DNA from: Nanobdellota archaeon
GTDB lineage: Archaea > Nanobdellota > Nanobdellia > Pacearchaeales > GW2011-AR1
DNA: 64,000 bases
Assembly (NCBI GenBank): GCA_018815925.1
Contig: JAHIWS010000011.1
Location: 51,753-115,752 of the forward strand
Direction of reading: 5' to 3'
Shown: in pieces, positions 7,683 through 35,698 of the stretch
How positions within the stretch are numbered: position 1 is the first letter of the stretch
How the letters are laid out: each line of letters opens with the position of its first letter
Position numbers and translations under genes: made by a program
Notes under the pieces: generated by a model
The model's database searches: none
Told to the model about the DNA's origin: nothing
The model's input: only the letters and a program-made list of their open reading frames with translations

Positions 7683-7706
7683 ACTTATTATATATGTATG
7701 ATATGT

Positions 7707-7714
7707 ATTATAAA
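7707..7714 (-). promoter_or_regulatory. TATA box (TTTATAAT on the - strand), 25 nt upstream of the giant-gene ATG; implies a leaderless or near-leaderless mRNA
   Basis: attataaa on the + strand at 7707-7714. The 17 nt between it and the ATG (acttattatatatgtat) recur upstream of the paralogous giant gene at 22378. Confidence 0.5.
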
Positions 7715-7859
7715 TCTTTGTATTCTTGTTAAAAATACTTATTATATGTGTATTAATTAGAGTGAGAAAAAAGGCTTATTTTTTAGGGGTTTTAAAAGAG
7801 AGGTTTAGGATTTATTAATAAAAAACTTTTAAATACAAGAATTCGTAGTAAGTATTGAT

Positions 7860-10394: not shown

Positions 10395-10417
10395 AGAGAT
10401 TTGCTTTGTTTTTTATT

Positions 10418-13400
10418 ATGGGGAAAAAGAAAAAGGTGACTCTTAGTTTAGAAGAGAAAGATTATTCTAAGTTTCAGAAGTATTGTGAAGAAAATGCAAT
10501 GAATTTTTCTAAAAAAATAGATTTACTGGTTAAGGATTTTTTGAAGAGTAAGAAATTGTTGGGTTTTCTTTTGGTATTTTTATTTTTATTTTTTGTTTCT
10601 GCATCAACTTTTGTTGATAATTCTCAAAGTGAATTTGATAATGGATATTATTTTAATACTTTTTATAACAATTCTGGTTTTATTCAGCTTAATTTGAGTG
10701 AAGGATTTATAAATGGAAGTTTTGAATCGCAAATTTTTGGCTCTGGGCTTTCTCAATGGGATAGTCTTTCTTGGGTGCAAAGTGGACCTTATGGAATTGA
10801 CCTCCCTGATAATAATAGTGTTGAAACGGAATTTGTGCAAGGAGCAGATATGACTGGAAATTTACTTTTATTGCATTTAGATGAAAGTTCTGGATCCCAA
10901 ACCTTTGTTGATTCTTCTGGTAATGAAAAATCTGTTTCTTGTTCTTCTACATCTTGTCCTGCTGCAGGTGTTTCTGGTTTATTTACAAGTGCCCTAAATT
11001 TTGATGGAAATAATGATAGGCTTTTGGAAGCAGACCCAACAACAATAACTCCAACAGATGAAATAACTTTTGAAGCATGGATTAAATGGGATGGAGAATC
11101 TGGTGAGAATAATGATCTTCAAAACATTATAACTAATGGTGAATGGGATCGTGCTTTAAGAATAACTGAGCCAGATCATTGGATTGGGGGAAGCCAGGTT
11201 CTTTCTGTTTTTCAAATTGGTGGAGGTGGAGCAACAGAACTTTATTCAAATACCAAAATATCAACAGGAATGTGGTATCATATTGCAACAACTTATGATG
11301 GTAGCGAGCTTGCAATTTATATTAATGGAAAAAAAGATGTAAATGTTTCTGAATCTGGAGCAATTGTTTCTCCTTGTTGTGGGACTTTTATTGGGGCTGA
11401 GGAAAATTCAGTTAGTAATTTTGATGGAGTTATTGATGAAGTAGCAATATACAACCGATCTTTAACTGAAGAAGAAATTATGGGACATTATAGAAGGGGT
11501 ATGGCTCGTTTAAATCTTAGTGTTAGATCCTGTGATGATTTTTCTTGTGATGTAGAGAGCTTTATAGATATTGAAGACACTTCTCCCCAGAATTTATTTA
11601 TTTTAAATAATAGTTATTTTCAATATAAGATAGAGTTTTTAACGTTAAATGAAAGTGTTAGCCCCGAAGTTTACAACGTAACAATCACTTATACTTCTTT
11701 GGACAGCGATCTTCCAACTATTTCTATTTTGTCTCCTGTTACTCAGAATTATACAGATACAAATATTTTAGTAAATATTAGTGCAATAGACCCTAATCTT
11801 GCTTCAGTCTGGTTTTATGATGGGAATACAAATACAACTTATATAATTCCCACTTATCACCTTTTTAGTGAAGGATTTAATACAATCACAGCATATGCAA
11901 ATGATACTTCTGGAAATTTGAATTCAACTAGTGTTAGTTTTTGGGTTGATAGTATTTTACCCCAAATTAATATAATAGCTCCTGTAAATTTAAATTACAG
12001 CAATGCAACAATTCTTGTAAATCTTAGTGCTAGTGATTTGAATTTAGATTCTATTTGGTGGAACAATGGAACAACAAACTTTAGTTATTCAAATCCTATT
12101 TATCACCTTTTTAGTGAAGGATTTAATACAATCACAGCATATGCAAATGATACTTCTGGAAATTTGAATTCAACTAGTGTTAGTTTTTGGGTTGATACAA
12201 CTGGCCCCTCTATAAATTTGATTAGCCCAGAATCTAAAACTTATGGACAGAATATAGAGCTACCTTTGGACTTTGTAGTAAGTGATTCAAATGGTGTGTC
12301 AAGTTGTTGGTATAATTTGAATAGTGGATATAATGTTAGTCTTTTAAATTGTCAGAATACAACTTTTGATGCTAGTGATGGAAATTACATCTTAAACTTT
12401 TTTTCAAATGATACTCTTGGAAATTTGAATAAAAAAAATGTTAGTTTTTCTGTTTCAACAGAGATAGCTGTTGTGTTGGTTTCTCCATTTGATTCAGAAT
12501 GGTTAAATTATCAAAATGTGGAGTTGAATTATACAGTTAGTACTTTGGCTGATATTTATAATTGTAGTTTATATGGAAATTGGGGTGGAGAGTGGCATTT
12601 GAATCAGACAAATTTAAGTGCAGTTAATCAAAGTGGGGGGATTAATTCCTTTAATGTTTTTTTGCCAGATGGTAATTATTTATGGAATATCTATTGTGAT
12701 GGGTTTTTTGATTCTTTTGCATTCAGCAATTTTACTTTGAATATTGATACACAAGAGCCAGTATTAAATATGTATTATCCTTTGAGTAATAATCTACTTA
12801 AGAGAAATGTTTCCCTTCTTTTGAATTTTACTATTTTTGATGATAATTTGGAAGAGTGTTGGTACACTTTAGATAATGGACAGACAAATATTAGTTTAGG
12901 GTGTAGTGAGGGAGATAATTATTACTACTTTAGTTATTTGACTGGAAATTTTAATCTTTCTGTTTATGCGAGTGATTTTGCCGGAAATAGTGCTGATACT
13001 ATAACAAGTAATTTAACAATAATGTATGATGGAATTTCCCCTAATGTTAGTTTATTAGATCCCCAGGGGGTTAAAACTAGTGCAAGTAATATTTTTTTAA
13101 ATTTTCTTGCAAGTGATAATGCTGATTTAAGAGAAGAAATGCTGTGTTGGTTTAGTGTTGTTTATGCATCTACAGGAGGTTCTGTCCCTGGACTAGAAAG
13201 TTTGTTTTTGAATAATTGCCAAGATACTATCTTTAATCTGATAGGAGATGGAAATTATATTTTAAATCTTGTTGTAAGGGACAAGACTGGGAATGCTGAA
13301 TTGCTTAACACTACTTTTTCAGTTTCTACAGGAACTTCAATTCCTCCTGGCGGGGGAAGTTCTGGTGGAGGAAGTTCTTCTGGTGGCAGTTTTGTTGTGT

Positions 13401-14281
13401 TAGGAAAAACAAAATTGGAAGTTGAAAGTTTATTTAATTCAATTTTATTTCCTGGAGACAATAAAAAAATTAGTTGGAATGTTAAAAATACTGGAACAAA
13501 TTTTCTTAATACTTGTAAATTTAAAGGAAATGGAGAATTTTCTTCTTGGATTTCTTCTTCTGAATCTTTAAGAAATCTTGCTGCAGGAGAAGAATATGAT
13601 TTTATTTTTGATTTGAATGTTCCTGACGATGTTGAAACTGGGTTATATAATCTTGAAATTAAATTAGATTGCAAGGAAATTAATAAAACCACAGGATTTG
13701 TAGTGGAAGTTGTAGATAAAGAAATAGGTTTTGAATTAATTAAAGTTGAAAGAGAGAAAAAAGATCAGATTAAAATTCTTTATTCATTACAAGAGCTTTC
13801 TAATTTAGATCAAAAAGTTGAACTTCAATTTTTATTATTTGGTTCTAATGGTGAAAAAGTAGCAGAACTTGAAGAATTTAAGGAATTACTTACAAATTCT
13901 GAACAAGAATTTGAATCTTTTATACTTATTGATAGTTTTCTTGAAGGAGAATTAAATTTATTAATTAATATAAATTCTGAAACTTATTCAGGTTTTGTTC
14001 AGGAAAATCTTGTTTTAGGTGCTCCAGCAACAGGTCTTCCTATTCTAGGAGATTTAGGAACAAGAGATAATATTGTTAGTGTTATTATGGTGGTTTTATT
14101 CTTGATTTTTGCTTTTTTTGTAGTTAGAAAAATTTTTGGACATAAAAAAGAAATTAAAAGAAGAAAAAGTGTCAAAGTAGTAAAGAAGGGGCAAGGAAGT
14201 AGAATTATTTTTATTAAGAAAAAAAAGAAAAAGGGTAAAATTTTTTCTATTAAAAGAAAAAAGAAAAAGTTTCCTCTTTAA
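10418..14281 (+). CDS. Giant bitopic surface protein (1,287 aa). Order: RHH-like N-terminus, signal-anchor TM, LamG domain, about 8 Ig-like adhesin repeats, G/S linker, CARDB/NEW3-like domain, C-terminal TM with a Lys-rich tail
   Basis: The track start at 10406 is a TTG; the first ATG is at 10418 (MGKKKKVTLSLEEKDYSKFQKYCEENAMNFSKKIDLLVKDFL). TM1: LLGFLLVFLFLFFVSAS. LamG: ALNFDGNNDRLL...ITFEAWIKW...WYHIATTYDGSELAIYINGK...FDGVIDEVAIYNRSLTEEEI. Repeats are of the type ISILSP..NYT..NILVN.SA.D.NL.S.W.....N......LFSEGFNTITAYANDTSGNLNSTSVSFWVD. TM2: IVSVIMVVLFLIFAFFVV. Confidence 0.85.
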   Translation: MGKKKKVTLSLEEKDYSKFQKYCEENAMNFSKKIDLLVKDFLKSKKLLGFLLVFLFLFFVSASTFVDNSQSEFDNGYYFNTFYNNSGFIQLNLSEGFINGSFESQIFGSGLSQWDSLSWVQSGPYGIDLPDNNSVETEFVQGADMTGNLLLLHLDESSGSQTFVDSSGNEKSVSCSSTSCPAAGVSGLFTSALNFDGNNDRLLEADPTTITPTDEITFEAWIKWDGESGENNDLQNIITNGEWDRALRITEPDHWIGGSQVLSVFQIGGGGATELYSNTKISTGMWYHIATTYDGSELAIYINGKKDVNVSESGAIVSPCCGTFIGAEENSVSNFDGVIDEVAIYNRSLTEEEIMGHYRRGMARLNLSVRSCDDFSCDVESFIDIEDTSPQNLFILNNSYFQYKIEFLTLNESVSPEVYNVTITYTSLDSDLPTISILSPVTQNYTDTNILVNISAIDPNLASVWFYDGNTNTTYIIPTYHLFSEGFNTITAYANDTSGNLNSTSVSFWVDSILPQINIIAPVNLNYSNATILVNLSASDLNLDSIWWNNGTTNFSYSNPIYHLFSEGFNTITAYANDTSGNLNSTSVSFWVDTTGPSINLISPESKTYGQNIELPLDFVVSDSNGVSSCWYNLNSGYNVSLLNCQNTTFDASDGNYILNFFSNDTLGNLNKKNVSFSVSTEIAVVLVSPFDSEWLNYQNVELNYTVSTLADIYNCSLYGNWGGEWHLNQTNLSAVNQSGGINSFNVFLPDGNYLWNIYCDGFFDSFAFSNFTLNIDTQEPVLNMYYPLSNNLLKRNVSLLLNFTIFDDNLEECWYTLDNGQTNISLGCSEGDNYYYFSYLTGNFNLSVYASDFAGNSADTITSNLTIMYDGISPNVSLLDPQGVKTSASNIFLNFLASDNADLREEMLCWFSVVYASTGGSVPGLESLFLNNCQDTIFNLIGDGNYILNLVVRDKTGNAELLNTTFSVSTGTSIPPGGGSSGGGSSSGGSFVVLGKTKLEVESLFNSILFPGDNKKISWNVKNTGTNFLNTCKFKGNGEFSSWISSSESLRNLAAGEEYDFIFDLNVPDDVETGLYNLEIKLDCKEINKTTGFVVEVVDKEIGFELIKVEREKKDQIKILYSLQELSNLDQKVELQFLLFGSNGEKVAELEEFKELLTNSEQEFESFILIDSFLEGELNLLININSETYSGFVQENLVLGAPATGLPILGDLGTRDNIVSVIMVVLFLIFAFFVVRKIFGHKKEIKRRKSVKVVKKGQGSRIIFIKKKKKKGKIFSIKRKKKKFPL
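11854..12197 (+). repeat. Two exact 98-nt direct copies (11854-11951 and 12100-12197), 246 nt apart, inside the adhesin repeat region
   Basis: Both copies read ttatcacctttttagtgaaggatttaatacaatcacagcatatgcaaatgatacttctggaaatttgaattcaactagtgttagtttttgggttgata. They encode (Y)HLFSEGFNTITAYANDTSGNLNSTSVSFWVD. Confidence 0.9.
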
Positions 14282-14655: not shown

Positions 14656-15873
14656 TCATTTAAATGTTTTTTTCTTGTTTGTTTTTTTGAAAACTTTTCT
14701 TAATAAGACTAGTGTTGTTAATAGAAGAATAATAGCCAAAATGATTAGTCCGTAAATTATAATTTTTGCATTTTGCAAAATAAGGCAATTGTTATTTAGT
14801 TTAAATTCTTTTGTTGAACTTGCAATATCTCCATTATATTTTGCCCTCACATAAACAACATAACTTTCAGAGGGAATATTTGTTGGCAATCTTATTGTTT
14901 TTAATACTTCTAAACTTGTTTCAATTGCTTTTGTTTCTGATTCTTCAATTATTATATTTCCTTTTTTATCCATTATTAAATATTCTATTGTTGTGTCAAC
15001 TTTTTTTGTTTCTCCCAAATTAAATATTTCTACTTCAAAGAGAATTTCTTCTCCACAAGAAATCTCTCTGTATTTTTCAGGTATTGTTATTTCAACATCA
15101 AAAAAAGCTTTTTTTGATTCTACTTCTATTGTGAGGAGAATTTCTTTTGTTTGGTCTTGGTTATTTATGAAGATATTTCCTAGGTAAAGATTAGGAGGGG
15201 TTTCTTCTCTAGCTATAAAATCTATTGTTATTATTTTTTCTTTTTCAGGATTAAGTGTAAAACTTTTTTGGTCTATTTTAATAAATTCTTTAAGATTTGA
15301 GGAAAGAGTGAATGTTTGGGTTTTGGATTCTGTATTTTTTATTGTTATTTTTTGAGATTGTGTTTCCCCTTGTTTTAAAGAGATTTGTATTTTGTCTTTA
15401 TCTATTTCAAAATTTTTTATTGATTTTCCTGTCATTCTTCCTCCATCGCCTCCACTTGGTGGTGGAGAAGGTTGGACGGGAGTTTCTTCTGCACTGAGAT
15501 TAATAAAGAAGACCACATTTTTTGTTGATTCACCAAAAGAATTGTTTGCATATAGGTGTAGAATATGGCTTCCTTCAGAAGTATTGAAGTATATAGGTTT
15601 TGTTAATGTTGTGTTTGAAAAATTATTTAGATTATACCAAACATTATTTCCTGTAGTTGAATAATTTAATAAAATAGAAGTGTTTGTTGTATAGGTTGTA
15701 TTTTCTGGACTTAGAATTGTTAGGGCAGGAGGAGCATTTGTTACAATTATGTTCATTCTTACTTGATTTGTAGCCTTTCCTGTTATTGTTGCCCCTTCTT
15801 TGGCTTTAATTATAAAACTCATGCTAATTAAAATTAAGGAAAAAATTATTACAAAAAAAAACTTTTTTTTCAT
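14656..15873 (-). CDS. Anchored surface protein (405 aa): signal peptide, one adhesin Ig-like repeat, P/G linker, CARDB/NEW3-like domains, C-terminal TM with a basic tail
   Basis: MKKKFFFVIIFSLILISMSFII; ITGKATNQ motif; LTILSPENTTYTTNTSILLNYS..NVWYNLN...EGSHILHLYANNSFGESTKNVVFFINL resembles the repeats of the giant proteins. C-terminal TM: IIIYGLIILAIILLLTTLVLL-RKVFKK. Confidence 0.7.
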   Translation of the reverse strand: MKKKFFFVIIFSLILISMSFIIKAKEGATITGKATNQVRMNIIVTNAPPALTILSPENTTYTTNTSILLNYSTTGNNVWYNLNNFSNTTLTKPIYFNTSEGSHILHLYANNSFGESTKNVVFFINLSAEETPVQPSPPPSGGDGGRMTGKSIKNFEIDKDKIQISLKQGETQSQKITIKNTESKTQTFTLSSNLKEFIKIDQKSFTLNPEKEKIITIDFIAREETPPNLYLGNIFINNQDQTKEILLTIEVESKKAFFDVEITIPEKYREISCGEEILFEVEIFNLGETKKVDTTIEYLIMDKKGNIIIEESETKAIETSLEVLKTIRLPTNIPSESYVVYVRAKYNGDIASSTKEFKLNNNCLILQNAKIIIYGLIILAIILLLTTLVLLRKVFKKTNKKKTFK

Positions 15874-15893
15874 GAATTAGAGAAGATTAGACC

Positions 15894-16469
15894 TTATTTA
15901 AAATTTGTTGGTTTTTTATTTTTCTTTTTATAATAAAAGAAAGCTATCACTCCTATTGCTATTGCGATTCCTATGATTAATAAGATAATTTCTAATATTG
16001 AAGTTTTTTCTTCTGGAGCTAGTTGGGGTACAAATCCAGTTTCAGTTACTATGACATCAAATTTTTGTGCTATGCTACTTCCAAATCCAAGGCCTCCTGC
16101 TGAGTTTTTTGCTATTTCTGTGAAGACCACATTTACAGGGTAGATTGTTCCTATTTCTGCATCTTTTGGAATATTTATTTTTAGGTTTACTATTGTTTTG
16201 TCTCCTAGTGGAATAAGATATTCTTCTTCCCTATCTGTTATTTGAACTACTTCACTTCCAGAATTTATGTCTGCTCTTACTATTATCTCATTATCTCCTG
16301 CAAAATTTTGAAGTGTAAGAAATGCTTCTTTATTTTGTTCTGGGTAGACATACATAGGATTTTCATCGTAGTATGCTGATGAAATAGCAAATGCATTCAC
16401 AAAGCTTGGTAAAAAGAGGACTAATGTTATTGCTATAATTCCATATAATAGGTTTTTGTTTGACTTCAT
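15894..16469 (-). CDS. Anchored surface protein (191 aa), beta-rich ectodomain, C-terminal TM
   Basis: The track start at 16538 overlaps the upstream gene. The ATG at 16469 (MKSNKNLLYGIIAITLVLFLPSFVNA) lies 1 nt after the upstream stop. C-terminal TM: ILEIILLIIGIAIAIGVIAFFYY-KKKNKK. Confidence 0.7.
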   Translation of the reverse strand: MKSNKNLLYGIIAITLVLFLPSFVNAFAISSAYYDENPMYVYPEQNKEAFLTLQNFAGDNEIIVRADINSGSEVVQITDREEEYLIPLGDKTIVNLKINIPKDAEIGTIYPVNVVFTEIAKNSAGGLGFGSSIAQKFDVIVTETGFVPQLAPEEKTSILEIILLIIGIAIAIGVIAFFYYKKKNKKPTNFK

Positions 16470-16470
16470 T

Positions 16471-17436
16471 TTATGTAGTTTGTAATGTCCATGTTCCCCC
16501 ACTTTTAGTTGAATATGACTGACTTGAAATACTACCAATATTTATCACACAAAAATGTAGTTGTTCTTGTCCTGTTCCATCATTTATTGTGTAGTTTCCA
16601 TTAGGAAGTACAGAATCTGATATGTTTATGAATGTGTCATTGACCATGAAAGAATCTGCACACTCGTCTAGATTTGGAAATGTCCCTCCTGAACTCAATG
16701 CTACTGAGAAGTTTGCAGCCCAAATAACTTCTGTGGTTGTTGTTTCTCCTCTAAGGTCTGTTGCATTTAGACTTATGTTTGAAATACTTGATGCAGCAGA
16801 TGTTCCTATTTCTTTATTTCCTGTGTTGTTTAGTGTTATAGGATCATCGTTAGGTGTTTGGTTTATAGAGTTAGGACTTACAGTCCAGGTTAAATTTACA
16901 GGCCCCATCTGAAATCCAGTTGTTGATGCTATTGAAAAATTTGTAGAGCTGTTTGTTGCAAAGTTTGAGTTGTTGTCTCTGACATAAGCTATTATTCCCC
17001 AGCTTCCAGAAGCATCCCACCACCACATTGTAACATTACAAGTGAAGTTTGCCCCATTTCCTGACCAATCTCTGTTAACACAGGTTGAATTAAATCTTGT
17101 TTCTTCTGAACCTTTTGTGAAATTGATACCCGCTGTGGAATGATTTAAATTTTCTATTCCTGAAGCTAAATAGACTGAAAAATTAATAATTACTGTTGTT
17201 GCTAATGGTGCTGAATTAAAAGTAGCTGCTAGTGATTTGATTACTGCACTATTATTATAAACAATACGAATTTCTGGGGCTCCTACAGTAATGTTTATAC
17301 CAACTTGACTAACTGCTTTTCCTGTTATTGTTTTTTTTATATTATCAAAAAATCCTGCAGAAGTTATAGAGATTAATAATATTAAAAATATAATTGTTAC
17401 AAAAGATACTAATACTATTTTCCCCTTTTTTTTCAT
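16471..17436 (-). CDS. Secreted protein (321 aa) that is a free-standing paralog of the distal 'tip' domain of the 1,634-aa adhesin
   Basis: Signal peptide, then GFFDNIKKTITGKAV. Shared blocks with aa about 1180-1470 of ORF 17474..22378: TFNSAPLATTVIINFSVY, GSEETRFNSTC, ANFTCNVTMWWWDASGSWGI, NFSVALSSGGTFPNLDECA.SFM. Exact nucleotide blocks: 17174-17225 = 18600-18651 (52 nt) and 16997-17031 = 18420-18454 (35 nt). Confidence 0.8.
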   Translation of the reverse strand: MKKKGKIVLVSFVTIIFLILLISITSAGFFDNIKKTITGKAVSQVGINITVGAPEIRIVYNNSAVIKSLAATFNSAPLATTVIINFSVYLASGIENLNHSTAGINFTKGSEETRFNSTCVNRDWSGNGANFTCNVTMWWWDASGSWGIIAYVRDNNSNFATNSSTNFSIASTTGFQMGPVNLTWTVSPNSINQTPNDDPITLNNTGNKEIGTSAASSISNISLNATDLRGETTTTEVIWAANFSVALSSGGTFPNLDECADSFMVNDTFINISDSVLPNGNYTINDGTGQEQLHFCVINIGSISSQSYSTKSGGTWTLQTT

Positions 17437-17473
17437 TATAAACTTTAAGTTAATTTCTTTTATAAATATTTCT

Positions 17474-20400
17474 TTAGTTTATTTTATTTATTTTTTTCAT
17501 GGCTTTTGAGTAAATTGTCCAAATATTTCTTTGATCTCTGTTTAGTATTTTTGCAATTTCACCATAATTTAAATCTTGTTTTCTTAAATAAATAGTTAAT
17601 GATTCAAGAATTGTTAGTTTTCTATTTTTAAATATTGAGATTGGAATGAAAATATTTGATTTTTTAATTTTTAATGTTGCTTTTTGTTTTTGTTTTGATT
17701 TATTATAGGATGCCCAAATTGTTCTTTGATCTCTGTTTAGTAATTTAGCTATTTCAGAATAAGGTAGGTTTAGTTTTTCTTTTAAATATTTTGTTAGGGC
17801 TTCTAATGCTCCTAATTTGTTTATGAAGATTGTTCCTGGAACTGTTGGTTCTCCTATGATTTTGTTTTTGATTTTTTTCTTTTTTCTTCTAAAACTTATT
17901 GCTACGAGGAGTATTCTAATGGTCCAAACACCTTTTCCTTCTGTTGAGTAGGCTTGAGTAGAAATATCAGAAATGGCGTTTATACAAAAGTACAATTCTT
18001 CTTGAGCTGTTCCATCGTTTTTAGTGAAGTTTCCTTTTGGAAGTATTGCTCCTGTTACATTTACGAGTGTGAAATTACTCATAAAAGAGCCTGCACACTC
18101 ATCTAGGTTTGGAAATGTTCCTCCTGAACTTAATGCTACTGAGAAATTTTCTGCATATATAGCCTCAGTAAGATATGTTTCACCCCTTAGATTTGATGCA
18201 TTTATACTTATGTTTCCAGTGATATATCCTGATTGTTTGTTTCCTGTGTTGTTTATTATTATAGGGTCATTTTCAGATGTTTGGTTTATAGAGTTAGGAC
18301 TTACAATCCAAGACAAGTTTACAGGGCCTATCTCAAATCCTGTTATTGATGCAATTGAGAAATTTGTTGAAGTATTTGTTGCTTCATTTGTATTATTGTC
18401 TCTTATATATGCTTTAATTCCCCAGCTTCCAGAAGCATCCCACCACCACATTGTCACATTGCAAGTGAAATTTGCAGAGTTTTCTCCATTGTCTTCAAAT
18501 CTAGTGCATGTTGAATTAAATCTTGTTTCTTCACTACCCCTTATAAAACTTATATTTGCTGTGCTTCCGTTTAAATCACTTACCCCATTTGCATCATAAA
18601 CTGAAAAATTAATAATTACTGTTGTTGCTAATGGTGCTGAATTAAAAGTAGTGGCTAGGGTTTTCATCACTTCTGTGTTGTTGTAGACTTGTTGTATTTC
18701 TGGAGCAGAATCTCCTGTTATTGTGAAATTTATTGCTGTTCTTTTTTCATTTCCTGCAGAATCATTTGCCCAGAGTGTGAAATTGTGTTGATCATTTGCC
18801 CAGATTATTGTTGTGATGTTCTGGCCACAATTTATTGAAAAGTTTTTTAAGAAAGTGTCATTAGACCACCAGCAGTGTGCTAATCCTAAATTATCTGATA
18901 TAGTATAATTTACATCTGTTGTGTTTTTTGTGTAGTGGGTGTTGTTTAAAGGATATACAATTGCCAGACTAGGAGCTGTTAGATCAATTATAAATTTCAC
19001 TGAAGTTGCATTTATGTTTCCAGCAGAGTCATTATTCCAAATAGTTACATTGTGTCGTCCTTCTGGCCATATTAGGGTGGTTATGTTTGTCCCGCAAGCA
19101 ATTGTTTTATTTATCAAATAAGTATCATTACTATACCAACAAGAAATAGAATCAGCTCCTGCAGTATAGTTTATGTTTAATAGTGTATCTGTCCAGTTTG
19201 TGTTGTTTGTTGGAAAAGTAATTGTTATGTTTGGAGCTACTGTGTCTATTGTAAAAGTTATTGAACTGGAATTTTCATTACCTGCTGTATCATTACTCCA
19301 AATAGTTACACTATGAATTCCTTCACTCCAAGTTACTCCTGTTATATTTGTACTACAATTAGCTAGACTTGTATTTACAGAATATGAATCATTAGACCAC
19401 CAACAAGATTCTATTCCAGTTCCAGAATCACTTGTAGTATAATTTACATTTAGTTGGTTGTTGCTTGAATTTGTTGCATTTGTAGCTGGATATAAAATTG
19501 ATAAATCAGGTGGTGTGATGTCTTCTACAATTCCTGTTCCAAGGGTAATGTTTCCTTGTTCCATTGTAAACCATGCTGCAGGGTTGCTATTGTGGCTATC
19601 ACAATCATTTGCTCCATCTTGTTCACACTGTCTTACATCAGGAGTAGCTGTGTTAACATCTCTTGCCCAAGGAGATTTAGGGTCCTGGCCTCCACTATTA
19701 CCATTCATACTCACCATTAATCTTGGAGTGGTATAACTTGCAGTCCAAGTAATTGCCCCCCATGTGGGTCCATTTACAGATACAGACCCTGATTGGAAAT
19801 TTACTTGTTCAGAAAAATTAACATTAGCAACATCAATTGCTACCCAACCAATATTTTCGTTAGGCATCCCTGAGGTACATGCATCACCTGTTCCTTGATG
19901 AAAACAAGATTTGAAAATTGCTTGAGTGGTGGTAATACTGTATACCCAATTTCTTACAGCCATATTATTTTCTGTTTGGGTGTAGCTTTGGGACTGGACC
20001 CATACTAATGGAGCATTTGAAAATGTTTTTCCAAAGGTTAGAGTAGTAGCTGCATTATCTGTTGAATCAACAGTACCATTTCCTATTGCAATCCAACTTG
20101 GCAAATCTGCATCTCTGTCAAAAACAAAATAATGTACTGTTTCTTCAATAAATGTGGGATCACAAGTAGCAGCACCAGCATCTTGACAAAGAGTTATATT
20201 AAAATGTGTTGTATTTATCATGCTTATTGTAGGAATAATTTGATTTTCATCATCACCAGTACCATCCTCATTTTCTGTAACAGGACTTGCAATTACTATT
20301 GGGGGGGAAGAATAAGTATTTTTAAATTTTATTAAGTGCCATTCAAAATTAGAAATGTTTATTTCTCCTGTTTCTCCAAGAATTACATAAGCATCATTAT

Positions 20401-22378
20401 GTGCATAGGCTTTTACCCCTCCAAAATCAAATTCTAAATGGTGTTTTCCTTGAGTTAGGACTTTTGAGATTTCAAATCCCATTTGGTTTTCACAAGAATA
20501 ATTTGAAATAAATATAGAATTATTTATCCATTCATAATCTAATTTATCTGGACCACATTTTATTTCAAGGAATTTTAGTTCATTTTCTTCATTTTCATTA
20601 CTCCAAGTTGTTCCATTAATAATAGTGATTGTTAGATCTGCTTGTCCAATTGTTGTGAATTCAACTGTCCAGTTTCCACCAACAGTTGGATAAGATTGTA
20701 TATTTAAGATTATAATTTCTAGTTCATAAGTTTGATTAGATAAGTGAGGAACAATCCATTCAATATAATCAATTAATTCATTTGAATTATTATCAAATGT
20801 TTGTATTTGTACAGGCTCTTTTGAACCATTGATTATGTGGTAAAGATGAATTGCTTGTTTAGGAGTTTCTTTTAATAGTTGAGTTGAAGCTAAAATATTT
20901 GTATAGCCTAATTCATTTGGATCAGATATTGTTATTATTTTTCCATTAGGAGTTATTTCTTCAAATGATATTGGTCCAGGTGTTTTATATTCTATTTCAT
21001 ATTCTGTTGCATTTTCGTCAATTGTAATCTCTATTGCATCTGGTTGTTCTTCTGTAAGAATTGCTCTTCCTGTCAAGGCTCCCAAAATTCTTTTAAAAAA
21101 TCTTGTTATGAAATTTCCTGTTGGTTGGGTTTTACTAGAACTTATAACTGCTCCTGTGATTAGTGATCTGGAAGTTATGTCTTCTTCTTGTGTTTCTTTA
21201 ATTAATGTAGAAACTTCTTCTAATTGTTCACTTACTTCTCTTAGTTGTTCTTGTAGTTCTTCAAGTTGCTTTTGTAATTCTTCAATTTTTTCTGAATTTG
21301 TTGTTGAAATGTTTTCTCCTGTTATTTTAGAAGAAGGAGCTTCTTCTGTACCAAGCTCTTCGCTTGGGAGCTCATCTAGGCTTGGCTGAGCTGGAGAAGG
21401 GGTCAAGTCTTCTTCTGCTGAAGAAACTCCTGTGTTTTGTTCTGAATATATTTTTGTTAATTTTTTTATACTGATGTTTTGAGCATTTTTTGGAAGTTTG
21501 ATTTTGATTGCTTTTGGATCTTCTAAAGAAATTTTTTTTGTCCATTTAACTGGTTGGCCTAAAACAGCTTGATACTGGATTGTTTCAACAGAAGCATTTT
21601 CAATTTCTGTTGCATTGATTGTGGTATTATTTCTTGGAATAGTAATATTTGTTTCAGGAATTGTTATATTTTCAATTGGTTTTGTTATATTTTCCTCAGG
21701 AGGAATTGTTATATTTATTTCTGGTTCTTCCTCTGTTATATTTATTTCAATTTCTTTCTCTTCCTCAATTTCCTTTGTTATATTTTCTTCTGGAATAGTG
21801 ATATTTGTTTCTGGCTCTGGAAGAGGTTCCTCTATTTCTTCTGGTTCTTGAGAAGGGGTCAAGTCTTCTTCTGGTTCTATAGGAACCTCTTCTTCTAATT
21901 CTAGTTGAATATTTTCGGGTATTTCTTCTTCAATAATTTCTTCTGGTGGATCTTCCTGTTTTGGTTCAGGTTGTTCAACAGGAGCTTCAGGTTGTTTTTC
22001 AGCTACTTCTTCTTCAACAATAAATCCTGTATATTTTAAGTCTACATAATAAAGAGCTAAAACAAATAAACCAAGTAAAACAAAACTAAAAAGTATTGTG
22101 GTTATTTTGTTTTGAATTATTTTTGTTTTTTGTTTTTTTAGGAGTTGTTTACACTTTTTTATGTAAGAATTATAAAAGTCTACCCATTGCTTTATTGTTT
22201 TTCCATTTGTTTTTTTATGAAGAATTTCTATGTATCTAGAATAAGGAATTTGTCTTTGAGTATATTTTTGATTAAGATTTTGAAAATAAGAAATTAACTC
22301 TTTTTTCTTTTTTTCTGCGAAAGCTATTTTTTTTTGTAGTTCCACTGTTGTGGCTTTTGCTAATTGACCCCTTCCCAT
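17474..22378 (-). CDS. Giant surface protein (1,634 aa). Order: conserved N-terminal cytoplasmic domain, TM anchor, acidic E/P linker with NITIP repeats, coiled coil, beta-rich modules, 3 Ig-like adhesin repeats, tip domain, short hydrophobic/KKKK segment, two C-terminal HTH modules
   Basis: Single uninterrupted ORF. TM: ILFSFVLLGLFVLALYYV. Coiled coil: EELQKQLEELQEQLREVSEQLEEVS. Three repeats of about 72 aa (..ESCWWSNDSY..ITGVTWSEGIHSVTIWSNDTAGNENSSSITFTIDTVAP..). The last 128 aa hold two copies of L..LE.L..YL......L.Y.EIAK.LNRDQR.IW..Y.K. Confidence 0.85.
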   Translation of the reverse strand: MGRGQLAKATTVELQKKIAFAEKKKKELISYFQNLNQKYTQRQIPYSRYIEILHKKTNGKTIKQWVDFYNSYIKKCKQLLKKQKTKIIQNKITTILFSFVLLGLFVLALYYVDLKYTGFIVEEEVAEKQPEAPVEQPEPKQEDPPEEIIEEEIPENIQLELEEEVPIEPEEDLTPSQEPEEIEEPLPEPETNITIPEENITKEIEEEKEIEINITEEEPEINITIPPEENITKPIENITIPETNITIPRNNTTINATEIENASVETIQYQAVLGQPVKWTKKISLEDPKAIKIKLPKNAQNISIKKLTKIYSEQNTGVSSAEEDLTPSPAQPSLDELPSEELGTEEAPSSKITGENISTTNSEKIEELQKQLEELQEQLREVSEQLEEVSTLIKETQEEDITSRSLITGAVISSSKTQPTGNFITRFFKRILGALTGRAILTEEQPDAIEITIDENATEYEIEYKTPGPISFEEITPNGKIITISDPNELGYTNILASTQLLKETPKQAIHLYHIINGSKEPVQIQTFDNNSNELIDYIEWIVPHLSNQTYELEIIILNIQSYPTVGGNWTVEFTTIGQADLTITIINGTTWSNENEENELKFLEIKCGPDKLDYEWINNSIFISNYSCENQMGFEISKVLTQGKHHLEFDFGGVKAYAHNDAYVILGETGEINISNFEWHLIKFKNTYSSPPIVIASPVTENEDGTGDDENQIIPTISMINTTHFNITLCQDAGAATCDPTFIEETVHYFVFDRDADLPSWIAIGNGTVDSTDNAATTLTFGKTFSNAPLVWVQSQSYTQTENNMAVRNWVYSITTTQAIFKSCFHQGTGDACTSGMPNENIGWVAIDVANVNFSEQVNFQSGSVSVNGPTWGAITWTASYTTPRLMVSMNGNSGGQDPKSPWARDVNTATPDVRQCEQDGANDCDSHNSNPAAWFTMEQGNITLGTGIVEDITPPDLSILYPATNATNSSNNQLNVNYTTSDSGTGIESCWWSNDSYSVNTSLANCSTNITGVTWSEGIHSVTIWSNDTAGNENSSSITFTIDTVAPNITITFPTNNTNWTDTLLNINYTAGADSISCWYSNDTYLINKTIACGTNITTLIWPEGRHNVTIWNNDSAGNINATSVKFIIDLTAPSLAIVYPLNNTHYTKNTTDVNYTISDNLGLAHCWWSNDTFLKNFSINCGQNITTIIWANDQHNFTLWANDSAGNEKRTAINFTITGDSAPEIQQVYNNTEVMKTLATTFNSAPLATTVIINFSVYDANGVSDLNGSTANISFIRGSEETRFNSTCTRFEDNGENSANFTCNVTMWWWDASGSWGIKAYIRDNNTNEATNTSTNFSIASITGFEIGPVNLSWIVSPNSINQTSENDPIIINNTGNKQSGYITGNISINASNLRGETYLTEAIYAENFSVALSSGGTFPNLDECAGSFMSNFTLVNVTGAILPKGNFTKNDGTAQEELYFCINAISDISTQAYSTEGKGVWTIRILLVAISFRRKKKKIKNKIIGEPTVPGTIFINKLGALEALTKYLKEKLNLPYSEIAKLLNRDQRTIWASYNKSKQKQKATLKIKKSNIFIPISIFKNRKLTILESLTIYLRKQDLNYGEIAKILNRDQRNIWTIYSKAMKKINKIN

Positions 22379-22401
22379 TACTTATTATATATGTATATTT
22401 C

Positions 22402-22409
22402 CTTATAAA
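22402..22409 (-). promoter_or_regulatory. TATA box (TTTATAAG on the - strand), 24 nt upstream of the ATG at 22378
   Basis: cttataaa on the + strand at 22402-22409. The segment between the TATA and the ATG is shared with the paralogous promoter at 7683-7714. Confidence 0.5.
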
Positions 22410-22511
22410 TGTTACTTACCATATATGTAATCCTTTTGAGAAGGATTTTTGTAGTGTATATCAAAAGATTTATATAGTTTTGTAGTTTGTAATTATGAAT
22501 TGAGGTTTTAA

Positions 22512-24179
22512 ATGGCTTATATTGTTAAACAAAAAGTTCATGGGAAAGATTACTATTATCTTAGAAAGAGTGTGAGATCTGGGAATAAAGTTGTGAGTAA
22601 GTCAATTGCTTATTTAGGAAAAGATAAAGAACAGGCTGAGAAAAAAGCTAAAGAAATTTTAAATGTGAAAAAACAAAAACAAGAACAAAAGGGTTCTGAA
22701 ACTTTAGAAAAACCAAAATATGTTAAGATATCTATTGAAGAGTTGGCTAATTTTTGTAAAGCAAAAGGATTTGTGTTTAGAAGTTCTGATATTTATGGAG
22801 GATTTTCTGGTTTTTGGGATTTTGGTCCTTTGGGTGTAGAACTTTTTAAGAATATAAAAAGAGATTGGTGGGATTTTTTTGTATATCAAAAAGAAAATGT
22901 AGTTGGAATTGAGGCAAGTGTTATTTCTTCACCTATGGCTTGGAAAGCTTCAGGTCATATTACTAGTTTTAAAGATGTTGCTGTTATTTGTAAGAAGTGT
23001 GGGAAATCTACAAAATTAGAGATTAGTGAATTTGGAAAAATAAACTGTGATTGTGGGGGGGAATATGAAAAAATAGGGGAATTTAATTTACTTTTTAAGA
23101 CAAATGTCGGAGCTTTAGATACAGAAGAGGCTTATCTTAGGGGAGAGACAGCTCAGGCAATGTTTATGAATTTTAAATTGGTTTCTCAAACTTCAAGAAT
23201 GCAATTGCCTTTTGGTATTGCACAGGTTGGAAGATGTTTTAGAAATGAGATTGCTCCAAGAGATTTTTTATTTAGGAGCAGGGAGTTTAATATTGGTGAG
23301 CTAGAGTTTTTTATTTCTCCTGGAGAAAAAGAATGTAATTTGTTAAAGAAAAAACATTTGGATTTAAAAATAAAACTTTTAGATGCAGAAATGCAAAAAA
23401 GTGGAAAAATAGAGTTTAATGAAACAAATATTAAAAAAATGTTGGAAGAAAAAAGATTAGGAGAATGGCATGCTTATTGGTTAGCAGAACAGATTTTTTG
23501 GTTTAAGAGTCTTGGTTTAGAGAATATTAAGGTTAGGGAGCATATGGAAGATGAAAGGGCTTTTTATTCTTCTGCAACTTTTGATATTGATTATAATTAT
23601 AATTTTGGAAGCAAGGAAATCGCAGGAATTGCAAATAGAGGTCAGTATGATTTAGGCCAACATCAGACAGAAGCTAAAAAATCAATGGAAATTTTTGATG
23701 AGAAATCTGGAAAAAAAGTTTTGCCTAGGGTCATTGAACCTACTTTTGGTATGGAAAGAGTTTTTTTGGCTATTTTAACATCAGCTTATTCAAAAAATTC
23801 TAAAGGGGATGTTGTTTTGAGAATTCCTCCTAAGTTGGCTCCAATTAAAGCAGCTGTTTTTCCAATTGTGAAAAAACCTAAATTTGAAAAAATTGCAGAA
23901 AATATTGTCTCAGATTTAAGAAAAGAATATAATGTTGTTTATGATAGGTCTGGAAGTATAGGGAGAAGATACGCAAGAAACGATGAAATTGGAACTCCTT
24001 TTTGCATAACTATAGATGAAAGTTCTTTAGAAACAAAAGATGTTACTGTGAGGATTAGAGATACTACGGAGCAGGTTAGAATTAAGATAGATAAATTAAA
24101 AGAAGTTTTAAAAAAAATAATAGCTGGAGAAGATATCCTTAATTTTGGAAAGAAAATCAACACAAGAAAGAAAATTTGA
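22512..24179 (+). CDS. glyS: Glycyl-tRNA synthetase, archaeal/eukaryotic alpha2 type, with an N-terminal extension of about 70 aa
   Basis: KAKGFVFRSSDIYGGFSGFWDFGPLGVELFKNIKRDWW; RGETAQAMFMNF; FGIAQVGRCFRNEIAPRDFLFRSREFNIGELEFF; C-terminal anticodon-binding domain. Confidence 0.9.
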   Translation: MAYIVKQKVHGKDYYYLRKSVRSGNKVVSKSIAYLGKDKEQAEKKAKEILNVKKQKQEQKGSETLEKPKYVKISIEELANFCKAKGFVFRSSDIYGGFSGFWDFGPLGVELFKNIKRDWWDFFVYQKENVVGIEASVISSPMAWKASGHITSFKDVAVICKKCGKSTKLEISEFGKINCDCGGEYEKIGEFNLLFKTNVGALDTEEAYLRGETAQAMFMNFKLVSQTSRMQLPFGIAQVGRCFRNEIAPRDFLFRSREFNIGELEFFISPGEKECNLLKKKHLDLKIKLLDAEMQKSGKIEFNETNIKKMLEEKRLGEWHAYWLAEQIFWFKSLGLENIKVREHMEDERAFYSSATFDIDYNYNFGSKEIAGIANRGQYDLGQHQTEAKKSMEIFDEKSGKKVLPRVIEPTFGMERVFLAILTSAYSKNSKGDVVLRIPPKLAPIKAAVFPIVKKPKFEKIAENIVSDLRKEYNVVYDRSGSIGRRYARNDEIGTPFCITIDESSLETKDVTVRIRDTTEQVRIKIDKLKEVLKKIIAGEDILNFGKKINTRKKI

Positions 24180-35690: not shown

Positions 35691-35698
35691 TTTTGAAA

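What the first reader, a model, noticed from the sequence alone, without database searches (positions are those of the whole stretch)
17474..17915. Two HTH modules fused in frame to the C-terminus of a 1,634-aa surface adhesin
The tip domain of the giant protein ends at ..EGKGVWTIR. This is the point where its free-standing paralog (16471..17436) terminates (..GGTWTLQTT*).

The giant ORF instead continues without a stop:
- a short hydrophobic stretch with a poly-Lys stop-transfer-like segment (ILLVAISFRRKKKKIKNK);
- then two copies of an HTH-like unit of about 50 aa: IFINKLGALEALTKYLKEKLNLPYSEIAKLLNRDQRTIWASYNKS and IFIPISIFKNRKLTILESLTIYLRKQDLNYGEIAKILNRDQRNIWTIYSKA.

The pattern (helix EIAKLL, turn NRD, recognition helix QRTIW..Y) resembles sigma-70 region 4 / LuxR-type HTHs. 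No ATG, GTG or TTG lies between the KKKK segment and the first unit, so a separate downstream gene is not supported.

If the hydrophobic segment spans the membrane, both termini would be cytoplasmic and about 1,380 aa would be outside. That gives a giant ectodomain physically coupled to DNA-binding modules. This would suit a membrane-tethered transcription factor, or contact sensing with proteolytic release. Rhomboid and HtrA-like proteases exist elsewhere in the window, but I see no direct link to them.

The hydrophobic stretch is only about 13 residues and includes an Arg, so the topology is uncertain.
Basis: partly seen in the sequence, partly recalled or inferred. Interest (0 to 1): 0.75.

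Follow-up and report, generated by a model that had tools for sequence, protein, structure and literature searches.

The report
Giant surface protein with DNA-binding tail
A 1,634-residue surface protein of a tiny DPANN archaeon really does end in two DNA-binding modules, the same fusion recurs in dozens of related genomes, and a conserved DNA motif at these genes' own promoters suggests the protein controls its own synthesis from the membrane.

Summary
ORF 17474..22378(-) runs without a stop from a beta-sandwich domain through ILLVAISF-RRKKKKIKNK into two sigma-70-region-4/LuxR-like HTH units (AlphaFold pLDDT >90).

It is not an assembly artefact. In 56 of 80 related DPANN genome loci the tandem HTH is the in-frame C-terminus of a giant ORF (1,200 to over 2,900 aa), with the same junction, the same ~90-aa basic N-terminal domain plus TM helix, and the same downstream genes. 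In 17 loci it is a stand-alone signal-less gene heading a surface-protein operon.

New finding: a 17-nt motif, TACAYAYATARTAAGTA, flanks the TATA box of HTH-encoding genes.
- The window has 4 copies against 0.01 expected, all at two giant-gene promoters.
- In the related loci, 95 of 99 copies lie at starts of HTH-encoding ORFs.
- A recognition-helix residue (Asn or Thr) covaries with motif position 4 (35/0 against 0/8).

Best reading: a two-pass transmembrane transcription regulator that autoregulates, probably by repression. The ectodomain is glycosylation-sequon-rich and acidic; both tails are basic and sequon-poor.

Unproven: the very short second membrane segment (median 9 uncharged residues), DNA binding itself, any proteolytic release and any host-contact sensing. 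No description was found in the literature searched.

The parts
17474..22378 (-). Giant ORF (1,634 aa) that ends in the tandem HTH
   Evidence: It is listed as its own cluster representative, P0272.
22106..22378 (-). Conserved basic N-terminal domain (aa 1-91), MGRGQLAKATTVELQKKIAFAEKKKK..KQWVDFYNSYIKKC, predicted cytoplasmic
   Evidence: It is conserved in about 21 complete giants. Net charge is +18 with 0 sequons. No Pfam or PDB relative was found.
22043..22105 (-). First transmembrane helix / signal anchor (aa 92-112), followed by the YTGFIVEEE motif
   Evidence: Kyte-Doolittle 19-residue score is 2.45. The TM plus TGFxVQE pattern is conserved.
17915..22042 (-). Ectodomain (aa 113-1488): acidic linker, H-type-lectin-like domain, Ig-like repeats
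   Evidence: Pfam finds Big_13, H_lectin and Big_7. There are 74 N-x-S/T sequons against 27 expected, and net charge is -124.
17915..18745 (-).
   Evidence: 65% identity to the product of 16471..17436. AlphaFold shows a beta-rich fold whose last strand is TIRI. Foldseek finds only weak matches to macroglobulin-like beta-sandwich domains of complement C3/C4.
17891..17914 (-). Short hydrophobic segment ILLVAISF (aa 1489-1496), candidate stop-transfer / second membrane span
   Evidence: The pattern W-x-I-[RK] + 8-15 uncharged residues + poly-K/R is conserved in 46 loci, median 9. In some family members the segment reaches TM-like hydrophobicity, KD19 up to 2.16. pLDDT is below 50.
17861..17890 (-). 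Polybasic cluster RRKKKKIKNK (aa 1497-1506)
   Evidence: It follows the positive-inside pattern.
17681..17842 (-). HTH unit 1 (VPGTIFINKLGALEALTKYLKEKLNLPYSEIAKLLNRDQRTIWASYNKSKQKQK)
17477..17653 (-). HTH unit 2 (IFIPISIFKNRKLTILESLTIYLRKQDLNYGEIAKILNRDQRNIWTIYSKAMKKINKIN)
   Evidence: The Asn in RNIW covaries with the operator base.
22379..22395 (-). Operator-like site O2, TACATATATAATAAGTA, abutting the ATG, between the TATA box and the presumed leaderless start
22402..22409 (-). TATA box TTTATAAG, centred about 27 nt upstream of the ATG
   Evidence: The same arrangement is seen in 24 other giant promoters.
22413..22429 (-). Operator-like site O1, TACATATATGGTAAGTA, just upstream of the TATA box
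3..7682 (-). Second giant paralog (at least 2,560 aa, runs off the window) with the same N-terminal domain. Its C-terminus is not visible.
   Evidence: Its best match is the L034 giant, which carries the HTH tail.
7682..7752 (-). Promoter of the second giant: two perfect motif copies (7682..7698 and 7736..7752) flanking TATA TTTATAAT (7707..7714)
14656..17473 (-). Conserved downstream genes: 321-aa free paralog (16471..17436, own BRE/TATA in the 37-nt spacer 17437..17473), 214-aa (15894..16538) and 405-aa (14656..15873) membrane-anchored surface proteins
   Evidence: The same gene order occurs in about 50 loci. The spacer promoters are shown.

Best explanation
The gene encodes a two-pass transmembrane transcription regulator that is specific to DPANN archaea.

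**Proposed topology**
- A basic ~90-aa N-terminal domain stays in the cytoplasm.
- A normal TM helix exports a ~1,380-aa glycosylated, acidic, lectin/Ig-rich ectodomain.
- A very short hydrophobic stop-transfer segment plus a poly-Lys/Arg cluster brings the chain back in.
- The two sigma-region-4-like HTH units therefore sit in the cytoplasm.

**Proposed action**
- The two covalently linked HTH units act as a single-chain pseudo-dimer.
- They recognise the asymmetric 17-bp site TACAYAYATARTAAGTA. This site occurs in phased copies on both sides of the TATA box of the protein's own gene and of its paralog's gene.
- One copy lies between the TATA box and the leaderless start. Occupancy there should block RNA polymerase recruitment, giving negative autoregulation that couples transcription to the number or state of surface-protein molecules in the membrane.

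**What is shown and what is inferred**
- Shown: the fusion, the fold, the family-wide architecture, the motif, its specificity for HTH-encoding genes, and the residue-base covariation.
- Inferred: the topology, DNA binding by this protein, the direction of regulation, and whether the ectodomain modulates it.
For: **The fusion is real and conserved**
- The fusion is in frame here.
- It is in frame in 56 of 80 genome loci.
- 36 of the top 150 cluster representatives are 1,000-5,919 aa with the HTH at the extreme C-terminus.

**The fold is an HTH**
- Pfam Sigma70_r4_2 scores above its cut-off on the tail.
- AlphaFold pLDDT exceeds 90 over both units.
- Single units superpose at under 1 A on sigma region 4, LuxR-type and EnfR HTHs.

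**Topology**
- Sequons: 74 observed against 27 expected in the ectodomain, 0 in the N-terminal domain, 1 against 1.3 expected in the tail.
- Net charge: +18 (N-terminal domain), -124 (ectodomain), +8 (junction), +17 (tail).
- Over 43 fused ORFs the sequon ratio is 2.24 in the ectodomain and 0.90 in the tail.
- Stand-alone relatives have no TM segment or signal peptide.
- The junction pattern is conserved in 46 loci. It reaches canonical hydrophobicity in some members.
- Translocons insert polyleucine segments of 9-10 residues (PMC4796907).

**Operator**
- The window has 4 sites with at most 1 mismatch against 0.01 expected, all at the two giant promoters.
- 95 of 99 sites in 902 kb lie in the 1.4% of search space around starts of HTH-encoding ORFs, both fused and stand-alone.
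- Spacings between adjacent sites cluster at 21-22, 30-34, 41-43 and 51-54 nt.
- Unit-2 RNIW goes with TACA-type sites (35 to 0) and RTIW with TACTTACA (8 to 0).

**Promoter geometry**
- The TATA box is centred about 27 nt from the ATG, and O2 lies at -17..-1.
Against: - The second hydrophobic segment has only 8 uncharged residues here (median 9 across loci).
- Its Kyte-Doolittle 19-residue score is 0.9-1.5. True anchors of neighbouring proteins score about 3.0.
- AlphaFold predicts no helix for it and treats WTIRI as the last beta-strand of the preceding domain.
- No DNA-binding experiment or co-folding was possible.
- The covariation has not been corrected for phylogeny.
- The transcription start site is inferred from the TATA position only.
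- The direction of regulation (repression or activation) is inferred from site position alone.
- Nothing shows that the ectodomain influences the HTH.
Confidence: 0.65

Rival explanations
1. Regulated release. The same architecture applies, but the HTH tail acts only after proteolytic cleavage at or near the short hydrophobic segment, by rhomboid, a site-2-type or another protease. This would resemble Notch, SREBP or anti-sigma cascades, and the freed tandem HTH would then regulate the promoter.
For: - The hydrophobic segment is short and often ends in a helix-breaking Pro (..LIP-RRKK), as in intramembrane-protease substrates.
- Free-standing versions of the same tandem HTH exist and are evidently functional as soluble proteins.
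- A rhomboid gene is present in the window.
Against: - No protease gene is syntenic with the locus in other genomes.
- The rhomboid is 13 kb away among housekeeping genes.
- No cleavage motif has been identified.
- In a cell a few hundred nm across, a tethered factor can reach DNA without release. Transmembrane regulators that act from the membrane are widespread (PMC10269533).
Confidence: 0.2
2. Extracellular tail. The short hydrophobic plus polybasic stretch does not span the membrane, so the HTH units are displayed outside. There they would bind extracellular or host DNA, or the polycationic stretch would act on the host membrane. The promoter motif would then be read only by stand-alone paralogs.
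For: - The segment fails standard TM criteria, and AlphaFold predicts no helix.
- Polycationic stretches can bind membranes.
Against: - The tail is sequon-poor and basic like the N-terminal cytoplasmic domain, unlike the ectodomain.
- Homologous stand-alone proteins lack signal peptides.
- The operator motif sits at the promoters of the fused genes themselves, and its variant tracks the fused protein's own recognition helix.
- P0019 joins the start of the N-terminal (cytoplasmic) motif directly to the HTH without any TM segment.
Confidence: 0.08
3. Artefact or accidental fusion. A lost stop codon, a frameshift in the A-rich poly-Lys tract or a mis-assembly joined a surface-protein gene to a separate downstream regulator gene.
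For: - The junction is encoded by A-rich runs (AGAAGAAAAAAGAAAAAAATC).
- Stand-alone versions of the regulator exist.
Against: - The in-frame fusion, with the same junction pattern, recurs in 56 independent species-level genomes at 40-64% identity.
- It also recurs in many metagenome proteins.
- No start codon is available for a separate gene.
Confidence: 0.02

Closest known systems
Transmembrane transcription regulators (ToxR, CadC, TcpP in bacteria; ArnR/ArnR1 in Sulfolobus)
   Same: - One polypeptide carries a DNA-binding HTH in the cytoplasm and a sensor part outside.
[quoted passage not shown]
- ArnR also controls surface structures.
   Different: - The DNA-binding part here is at the C-terminus, after a second and unusually short membrane segment.
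- It consists of two sigma-region-4-like HTH units in tandem, not a winged helix.
- The ectodomain is a ~1,380-aa adhesin-like array.
- The apparent target is the gene's own promoter.
- DPANN are not mentioned in the survey paper.
ECF sigma / anti-sigma pairs and RsgI-SigI of Clostridium thermocellum
   Same: - The HTH is of the sigma-region-4 type.
- In the stand-alone form the regulator gene overlaps the next gene by 4-14 nt, and that gene encodes a membrane or surface protein with a large extracytoplasmic part.
- A motif in the regulator's own promoter suggests autoregulation.
- RsgI proteins couple extracellular carbohydrate-binding modules to a cytoplasmic regulator (stated from my own knowledge).
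   Different: - There is no sigma region 2 and no bacterial-type RNA polymerase in archaea.
- No recognisable anti-sigma domain is present. The N-terminal domain has no Pfam or PDB relative, and hhalign to the operon partners matched only the TM segment.
- Here the regulator is covalently fused to the membrane protein.
Tfx / EnfR family of archaeal regulators
   Same: - They are the closest characterised archaeal proteins with this HTH type.
- EnfR (PDB 8hno) superposes at 0.5 A over 46 residues with 33% identity.
- EnfR is a repressor that binds a pseudo-palindrome in a promoter (PMC10570040).
   Different: - NCBIfam Tfx scores 16.9 bits against a cut-off of 60.25, and EnfR 15.7 against 260.
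- There is no Tfx C-terminal domain.
- Tfx/EnfR proteins have a single HTH and form homodimers. Here two HTH units sit in one chain.
Bipartite two-HTH monomers (MarA/SoxS/Rob of the AraC family; paired/Tc3 domains)
   Same: Two HTH modules in one polypeptide read an asymmetric site of ~17-20 bp in a fixed orientation relative to the promoter. This is an analogy from my own knowledge. Tc3 appears among the weak Foldseek matches.
   Different: - The folds and families are unrelated; there is no AraC-type Pfam hit.
- Here the two units are clear duplicates of each other (55-59% identity).

Membership tests
Sigma-70 region 4 / LuxR-type HTH fold (Pfam PF08281 and relatives) | Sequence match above the curated threshold | tested here: met
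   The tail alone scores 30.5 bits against a cut-off of 25.7. In the context of the whole 1,634-aa protein the score is 20.4 bits, below the cut-off.
Sigma-70 region 4 / LuxR-type HTH fold (Pfam PF08281 and relatives) | Three-helix HTH fold superposable on region 4 | tested here: met
   AlphaFold pLDDT exceeds 90. Foldseek gives 5fgm at 0.6 A over 42 residues, 2h27 at 2.1 A over 49 and 5vxn at 0.6 A over 44, each with probability about 1.0. E-values are above 0.1 because the domain is short.
Bacterial sigma-70 / ECF sigma factors | Region 2 (core-binding, -10 recognition) together with region 4 | tested here: not met
   No region 2 match appears in Pfam or NCBIfam. TIGR02937 scores 24.1 bits against a cut-off of 42.9 and covers only the C-terminal ~40 model positions. 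This protein is not a sigma factor.
Tfx / EnfR family | Score above the family cut-off, and the family's C-terminal domain | tested here: not met
   TIGR00721 scores 16.9 against 60.25, and NF053597 scores 15.7 against 260.
Transmembrane transcription regulators (operational class of PMC10269533) | A DNA-binding domain in the same polypeptide as at least one predicted TM region | tested here: met
   HTH units. TM1 (aa 92-112) has a Kyte-Doolittle 19-residue score of 2.45.
Transmembrane transcription regulators (operational class of PMC10269533) | DNA-binding domain located on the cytoplasmic side | tested here: inconclusive
   Composition and homolog evidence favour a cytoplasmic tail. The second span is too short for standard predictors, and AlphaFold predicts no helix.
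Transmembrane transcription regulators (operational class of PMC10269533) | Binds and regulates a target promoter | not testable with these tools
   Only indirect evidence is available: motif specificity, phased spacing and residue-base covariation.
Regulated-intramembrane-proteolysis substrates (Notch/SREBP/RsiV type) | Signal-dependent cleavage that releases the cytoplasmic domain | not testable with these tools
   No syntenic protease was found. A rhomboid gene is present elsewhere in the window.

The most novel reading that the evidence does not exclude
The giant protein is a self-contained contact or tension sensor of an episymbiotic archaeon.
- Both ends of the huge extracellular loop are anchored in the membrane.
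- The conserved N-terminal cytoplasmic domain holds the C-terminal tandem HTH inactive, or active, within the same molecule. This would be a single-chain equivalent of an anti-sigma/sigma pair.
- Engagement of the ectodomain with a host cell changes that interaction, or triggers cleavage at the minimal membrane segment.
- Host attachment would thereby be wired directly to transcription of the attachment genes.
Probability: 0.2. Interest if true: 0.92.

Novelty: new variant of a known kind. Interest (0 to 1): 0.8.

Why it matters
DPANN archaea are thought to live attached to hosts. Their giant surface proteins are the main candidates for that contact, but nothing is known about how these proteins are regulated or whether they signal.

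This analysis found a large, previously undescribed family: about 2,000 sequence clusters at E <= 1e-10. In this family such proteins are hard-wired to a DNA-binding module, and a precise candidate operator sits at their own promoters.

That gives three directly testable handles:
- a binding assay with a 127-aa tail and a 50-bp DNA fragment;
- a one-residue/one-base specificity swap;
- a topology test of an unusually short membrane segment.

It also reinterprets proteins that automatic annotation calls 'sigma-24 family' in archaea, which have no sigma-dependent polymerase.

Tried and rejected
- **Frameshift or slippage at the A-rich poly-Lys tract.** The other frames stop within about 12 codons. 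The in-frame fusion is conserved across genomes, so this was rejected as an artefact. Programmed slippage was not tested further.
- **Internal start giving a separate HTH protein.** There is no ATG, GTG or TTG in the window's junction and no conserved Met in the family.
- **Sequence search of solved structures with the tail profile.** Nothing significant was found.
- **N-terminal domain.** It has no Pfam or PDB relative. hhalign against the membrane protein encoded after a stand-alone HTH gene matched only the TM + (T/S)G(F/Y) motif, with probability 46%. An anti-sigma-like relationship therefore remains an idea, not a result.
- **Fold search of the beta-sandwich domain.** It gave only weak matches to macroglobulin-like domains of complement C3/C4.
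- **Literature.** Four searches aimed at prior descriptions found none of this fusion or motif. Two related items turned up:
  - Castelle et al. 2021 mention 'sigma-70' families in Woesearchaeota without anti-sigma factors. These may be the same proteins, but I could not confirm that.
  - The class 'transmembrane transcription regulators' is established.
- **Link to the window's rhomboid and trypsin-like genes.** The genes are confirmed, but there is no synteny with the locus.
- **Motif in other promoters.** The motif is absent from the promoters of the other surface-protein genes in the window.
Full report
**1. The observation**

The window has 29% G+C. ORF 17474..22378 on the minus strand is a single 1,634-aa reading frame, and the other two frames across the junction are full of stops.

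After ..EGKGVWTIR the frame continues through ILLVAISF, RRKKKKIKNK and IIGEPTVPGT into two ~50-aa units. These units are 55-59% identical to each other and occur nowhere else in the window. Codons 1503-1522 contain no ATG, GTG or TTG.

The 321-aa protein encoded just downstream (16471..17436) is 65% identical to residues ~1212-1488. Its alignment stops at WTLQ against WTIR.

**2. The tail is an HTH pair**

- On the tail alone, Pfam Sigma70_r4_2 scores 30.5 bits (cut-off 25.7), with weaker HTH_38, HTH_23 and Sigma70_r4 hits.
- NCBIfam gives only sub-threshold hits to ECF sigma, Tfx and EnfR models. All of these cover just the HTH.
- AlphaFold2 on a 23-sequence alignment gives pLDDT 85.7 overall and above 90 over both units. 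Each unit is a short strand (IPxSIF) plus three helices.
- Single units superpose on SigR region 4 (0.6 A over 42 residues), SigE region 4 bound to DNA, RcsB (0.6 A over 44, 34% identity) and the archaeal repressor EnfR (0.5 A over 46, 33% identity).
- There is no sigma region 2, so the protein is not a sigma factor.

**3. The fusion is a conserved architecture**

*Metagenome proteins.* A search with the last 128 aa found 67 proteins, those with a source name labelled Nanoarchaeota or Pacearchaeota, and most covering both units. Several contig-edge fragments show the same junction. P0003, for example, reads ..QAYSTSQEGAWTIRIMLAVLAVKGASKLKRKKKKKRKIIGELTIP...

*Genome loci.* A scan of one genome per species found 174 relatives, of which 80 loci were fetched. 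Nearly all carry Pacearchaeota, Woesearchaeota, Nanoarchaeota or unclassified-archaeon labels; a handful of MAGs are labelled otherwise.
- In 56 loci the tandem HTH is the C-terminus of a giant ORF of 1,200 to over 2,900 aa.
- In 17 loci it is a stand-alone gene of 157-214 aa.
- 7 loci are cut too short to tell.

*Representative clusters.* An exhaustive profile search of 1.84 billion representatives found 2,247 clusters at E <= 1e-3, of which 2,076 reach E <= 1e-10. Of the best 150, 36 are 1,000-5,919 aa with the HTH at the extreme C-terminus.

*Junction.* The pattern is conserved..YST..G.W-x-I-[RK], then 8-15 uncharged residues (median 9; 46 loci), then 5-10 Lys/Arg. After that comes either the HTH directly (as here) or one or two helical 'LKEEYSLNKKE' linker repeats.

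*N-terminus.* Complete giants share a ~90-aa basic N-terminal domain (MGRTRLAKA..ISY..Y.E..K..GKT..EW..YY..YI..C), a normal TM helix and a TGFxVQE motif. This domain has no Pfam or PDB relative.

*Gene order.* The order giant-HTH, 321-aa paralog, 214-aa protein, 405-aa protein recurs in about 50 loci. An assembly artefact is excluded.

**4. Stand-alone relatives**

- They have no signal peptide or TM segment.
- They overlap the next gene by 4-14 nt (up to 65 nt).
- The next gene encodes a giant surface protein (2,213-2,378 aa) or smaller membrane or secreted proteins.

The module is therefore always tied to surface-protein genes, whether fused or free.

**5. A conserved operator-like motif (new)**

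*Discovery.* Printing the upstream DNA of the complete giants revealed TACAYAYATARTAAGTA in at least two direct copies flanking a TATA box.

*In the window.*
- O1 is 22413..22429, the TATA box TTTATAAG is 22402..22409, and O2 is 22379..22395, abutting the ATG.
- The TATA centre lies about 27 nt from the ATG. The transcript is therefore probably leaderless and O2 covers -17..-1. This is an inference.
- With at most 1 mismatch the window holds 4 sites against 0.01 expected.
- The other two sites, 7682..7698 and 7736..7752, flank the TATA box of a second giant gene. That gene starts at 7682(-) and runs off the window. Its best match is the L034 giant, which has the HTH tail.

*In the related loci.*
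- In 902 kb, 95 of 99 sites with at most 2 mismatches lie within -300..+200 of the start of an HTH-encoding ORF, fused or stand-alone. That zone is 1.4% of the search space.
- Two of the four exceptions are perfect copies at a contig end.
- 86 unique sites give the matrix aTACA[TC]A[CT]ATA[AG]TAAGTA.
- Spacings between adjacent sites cluster at 21-22, 30-34, 41-43 and 51-54 nt, roughly whole helical turns.

*Covariation.*
- Proteins whose unit-2 recognition helix reads R-N-I-W have TACA-type sites (35 to 0).
- Those reading R-T-I-W have TACTTACA (8 to 0).
- Fisher's exact test gives 7e-9, not corrected for phylogeny.

*Other genes.* No other surface-protein gene in the window carries the motif.

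The simplest reading is that the tandem HTH binds this site in its own promoter.

**6. Topology**

*For a cytoplasmic tail.*
- Sequon counts and net charge by region in this protein:

| Region | N-x-S/T sequons, observed / expected | Net charge |
|---|---|---|
| N-terminal domain | 0 / 0.5 | +18 |
| Ectodomain | 74 / 27 | -124 |
| Junction | 0 / 0 | +8 |
| Tail | 1 / 1.3 | +17 |

- Over 43 fused ORFs the sequon ratio is 2.24 in the ectodomain and 0.90 in the tail.
- The stand-alone relatives are cytoplasmic.
- P0019 joins the start of the N-terminal motif directly to the HTH without any TM segment.
- The autoregulatory motif itself requires the HTH to reach DNA.

*Against.*
- The segment has only 8 uncharged residues here.
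- Its Kyte-Doolittle 19-residue score is 0.9-1.5, against about 3.0 for the true anchors of the neighbouring proteins.
- AlphaFold makes TIRI the last strand of the preceding domain and leaves AISFRRKKKKI disordered.

*Mitigating.*
- In other family members the W-to-basic stretch is 12-18 residues and reaches a KD19 score of 1.6-2.2.
- Translocons insert polyleucine segments of 9-10 residues (PMC4796907).

I rate an in-out-in topology at about 0.75.

**7. Mechanism**

*Best-supported.* This is a transmembrane transcription regulator whose two linked HTH units read an asymmetric 17-bp operator on both sides of the TATA box of its own gene and of a paralogous giant gene. Occupancy of the site between TATA and the start most likely represses transcription. 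That inference rests on how archaeal repressors bound downstream of TATA generally act. The result would be feedback between surface-protein load and transcription.

*Open questions.* Whether the tail acts while tethered or after cleavage, and whether the ectodomain or the N-terminal domain modulates it, is unknown. The rhomboid (35693..36388) and trypsin-like (42061..42924) genes exist but are not syntenic with the locus elsewhere.

**8. Comparison with known systems and novelty**

- Transmembrane transcription regulators are an established, widespread class in bacteria and archaea (PMC10269533; ArnR, PMC6396743).
- This family differs in five ways: a C-terminal tandem sigma-region-4-like DNA-binding part, a minimal second span, a giant adhesin-like ectodomain, apparent self-targeting, and restriction to DPANN.
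- It resembles ECF sigma/anti-sigma logic in gene order and autoregulation but fails the membership tests (no region 2, no anti-sigma domain).
- Castelle et al. 2021 noted 'sigma-70' families in Woesearchaeota with no anti-sigma partner. These may be the same proteins, which would then be reinterpreted here. That link is unconfirmed.
- No paper in the searchable library describes the fusion or the motif.

**Verdict.** The feature is real, it is a new variant of a known kind, and it is of high interest.

Noticed in passing
window 3..7682 (-), promoter 7682..7752: A second giant surface-protein gene of at least 2,560 aa runs off the window start. It has LamG, beta-helix, pentaxin-like and DUF2341 domains, the same N-terminal cytoplasmic domain, and two perfect copies of the 17-nt motif flanking its TATA box. 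Its C-terminus is not visible. Its best match elsewhere (the L034 giant) carries the HTH tail.
   Followed up: partly
window 22440..22490 (intergenic, between the giant gene and the divergent gene at 22512..24179): There is a second conserved module, ACTAC-N-TATAAATCTTTTG-N-CACTAC: two CACTAC boxes flanking a second TATA-like element. It recurs upstream of giants in at least 7 other loci. The divergent class II aminoacyl-tRNA synthetase gene is syntenic with the giant gene in about 14 loci. This may be the operator or promoter of the divergent gene. It remains unexplained.
   Followed up: partly
window 10418..10567 (+), N-terminus of the 1,291-aa LamG/Ig surface protein at 10406..14281: The cytoplasmic N-terminus (MGKKKKVTLSLEEKDYSKFQKYCEENAMNFSKKIDLLVKDFL), which precedes the TM helix, looks like a ribbon-helix-helix. 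It gives weak sub-threshold hits to ParG (E 0.01, 16.4 bits against a cut-off of 21.4) and DUF6364. It may be a second surface protein coupled to a DNA-binding module.
   Followed up: partly
window 17437..17473 and the equivalent spacers in about 40 loci: The free 321-aa paralog has its own strong BRE/TATA (AGAAATATTTATAAAAG) in the 37-nt spacer right after the giant's stop codon. The element GAAATNTTTAWAAA is conserved at this position across loci. It carries no copy of the 17-nt motif.
   Followed up: partly
L051, L059, L063; proteins P0001, P0002, P0004, P0186, P0187: Some family members carry three or four HTH units instead of two. Many others have one or two helical 'L..A..LI.ELKEEYSLNKKE' repeats between the polybasic cluster and the first HTH. 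The window protein lacks these repeats.
   Followed up: no
window 16471..17436 and giant residues ~113-120; p321-like genes in the loci: A conserved motif follows the N-terminal hydrophobic segment of the secreted partners (SAGFF..I.K.ITGKA) and of the giants (TGFxVQE). It may be a shared processing or anchoring signal. Its meaning is unknown.
   Followed up: no
window 35693..36388 (+) and 42061..42924 (-): A rhomboid protease gene and a trypsin/HtrA-like peptidase gene without a detected PDZ domain are confirmed by Pfam. Both lie among tRNA-synthetase and other housekeeping genes, with no conserved linkage to the giant locus.
   Followed up: yes
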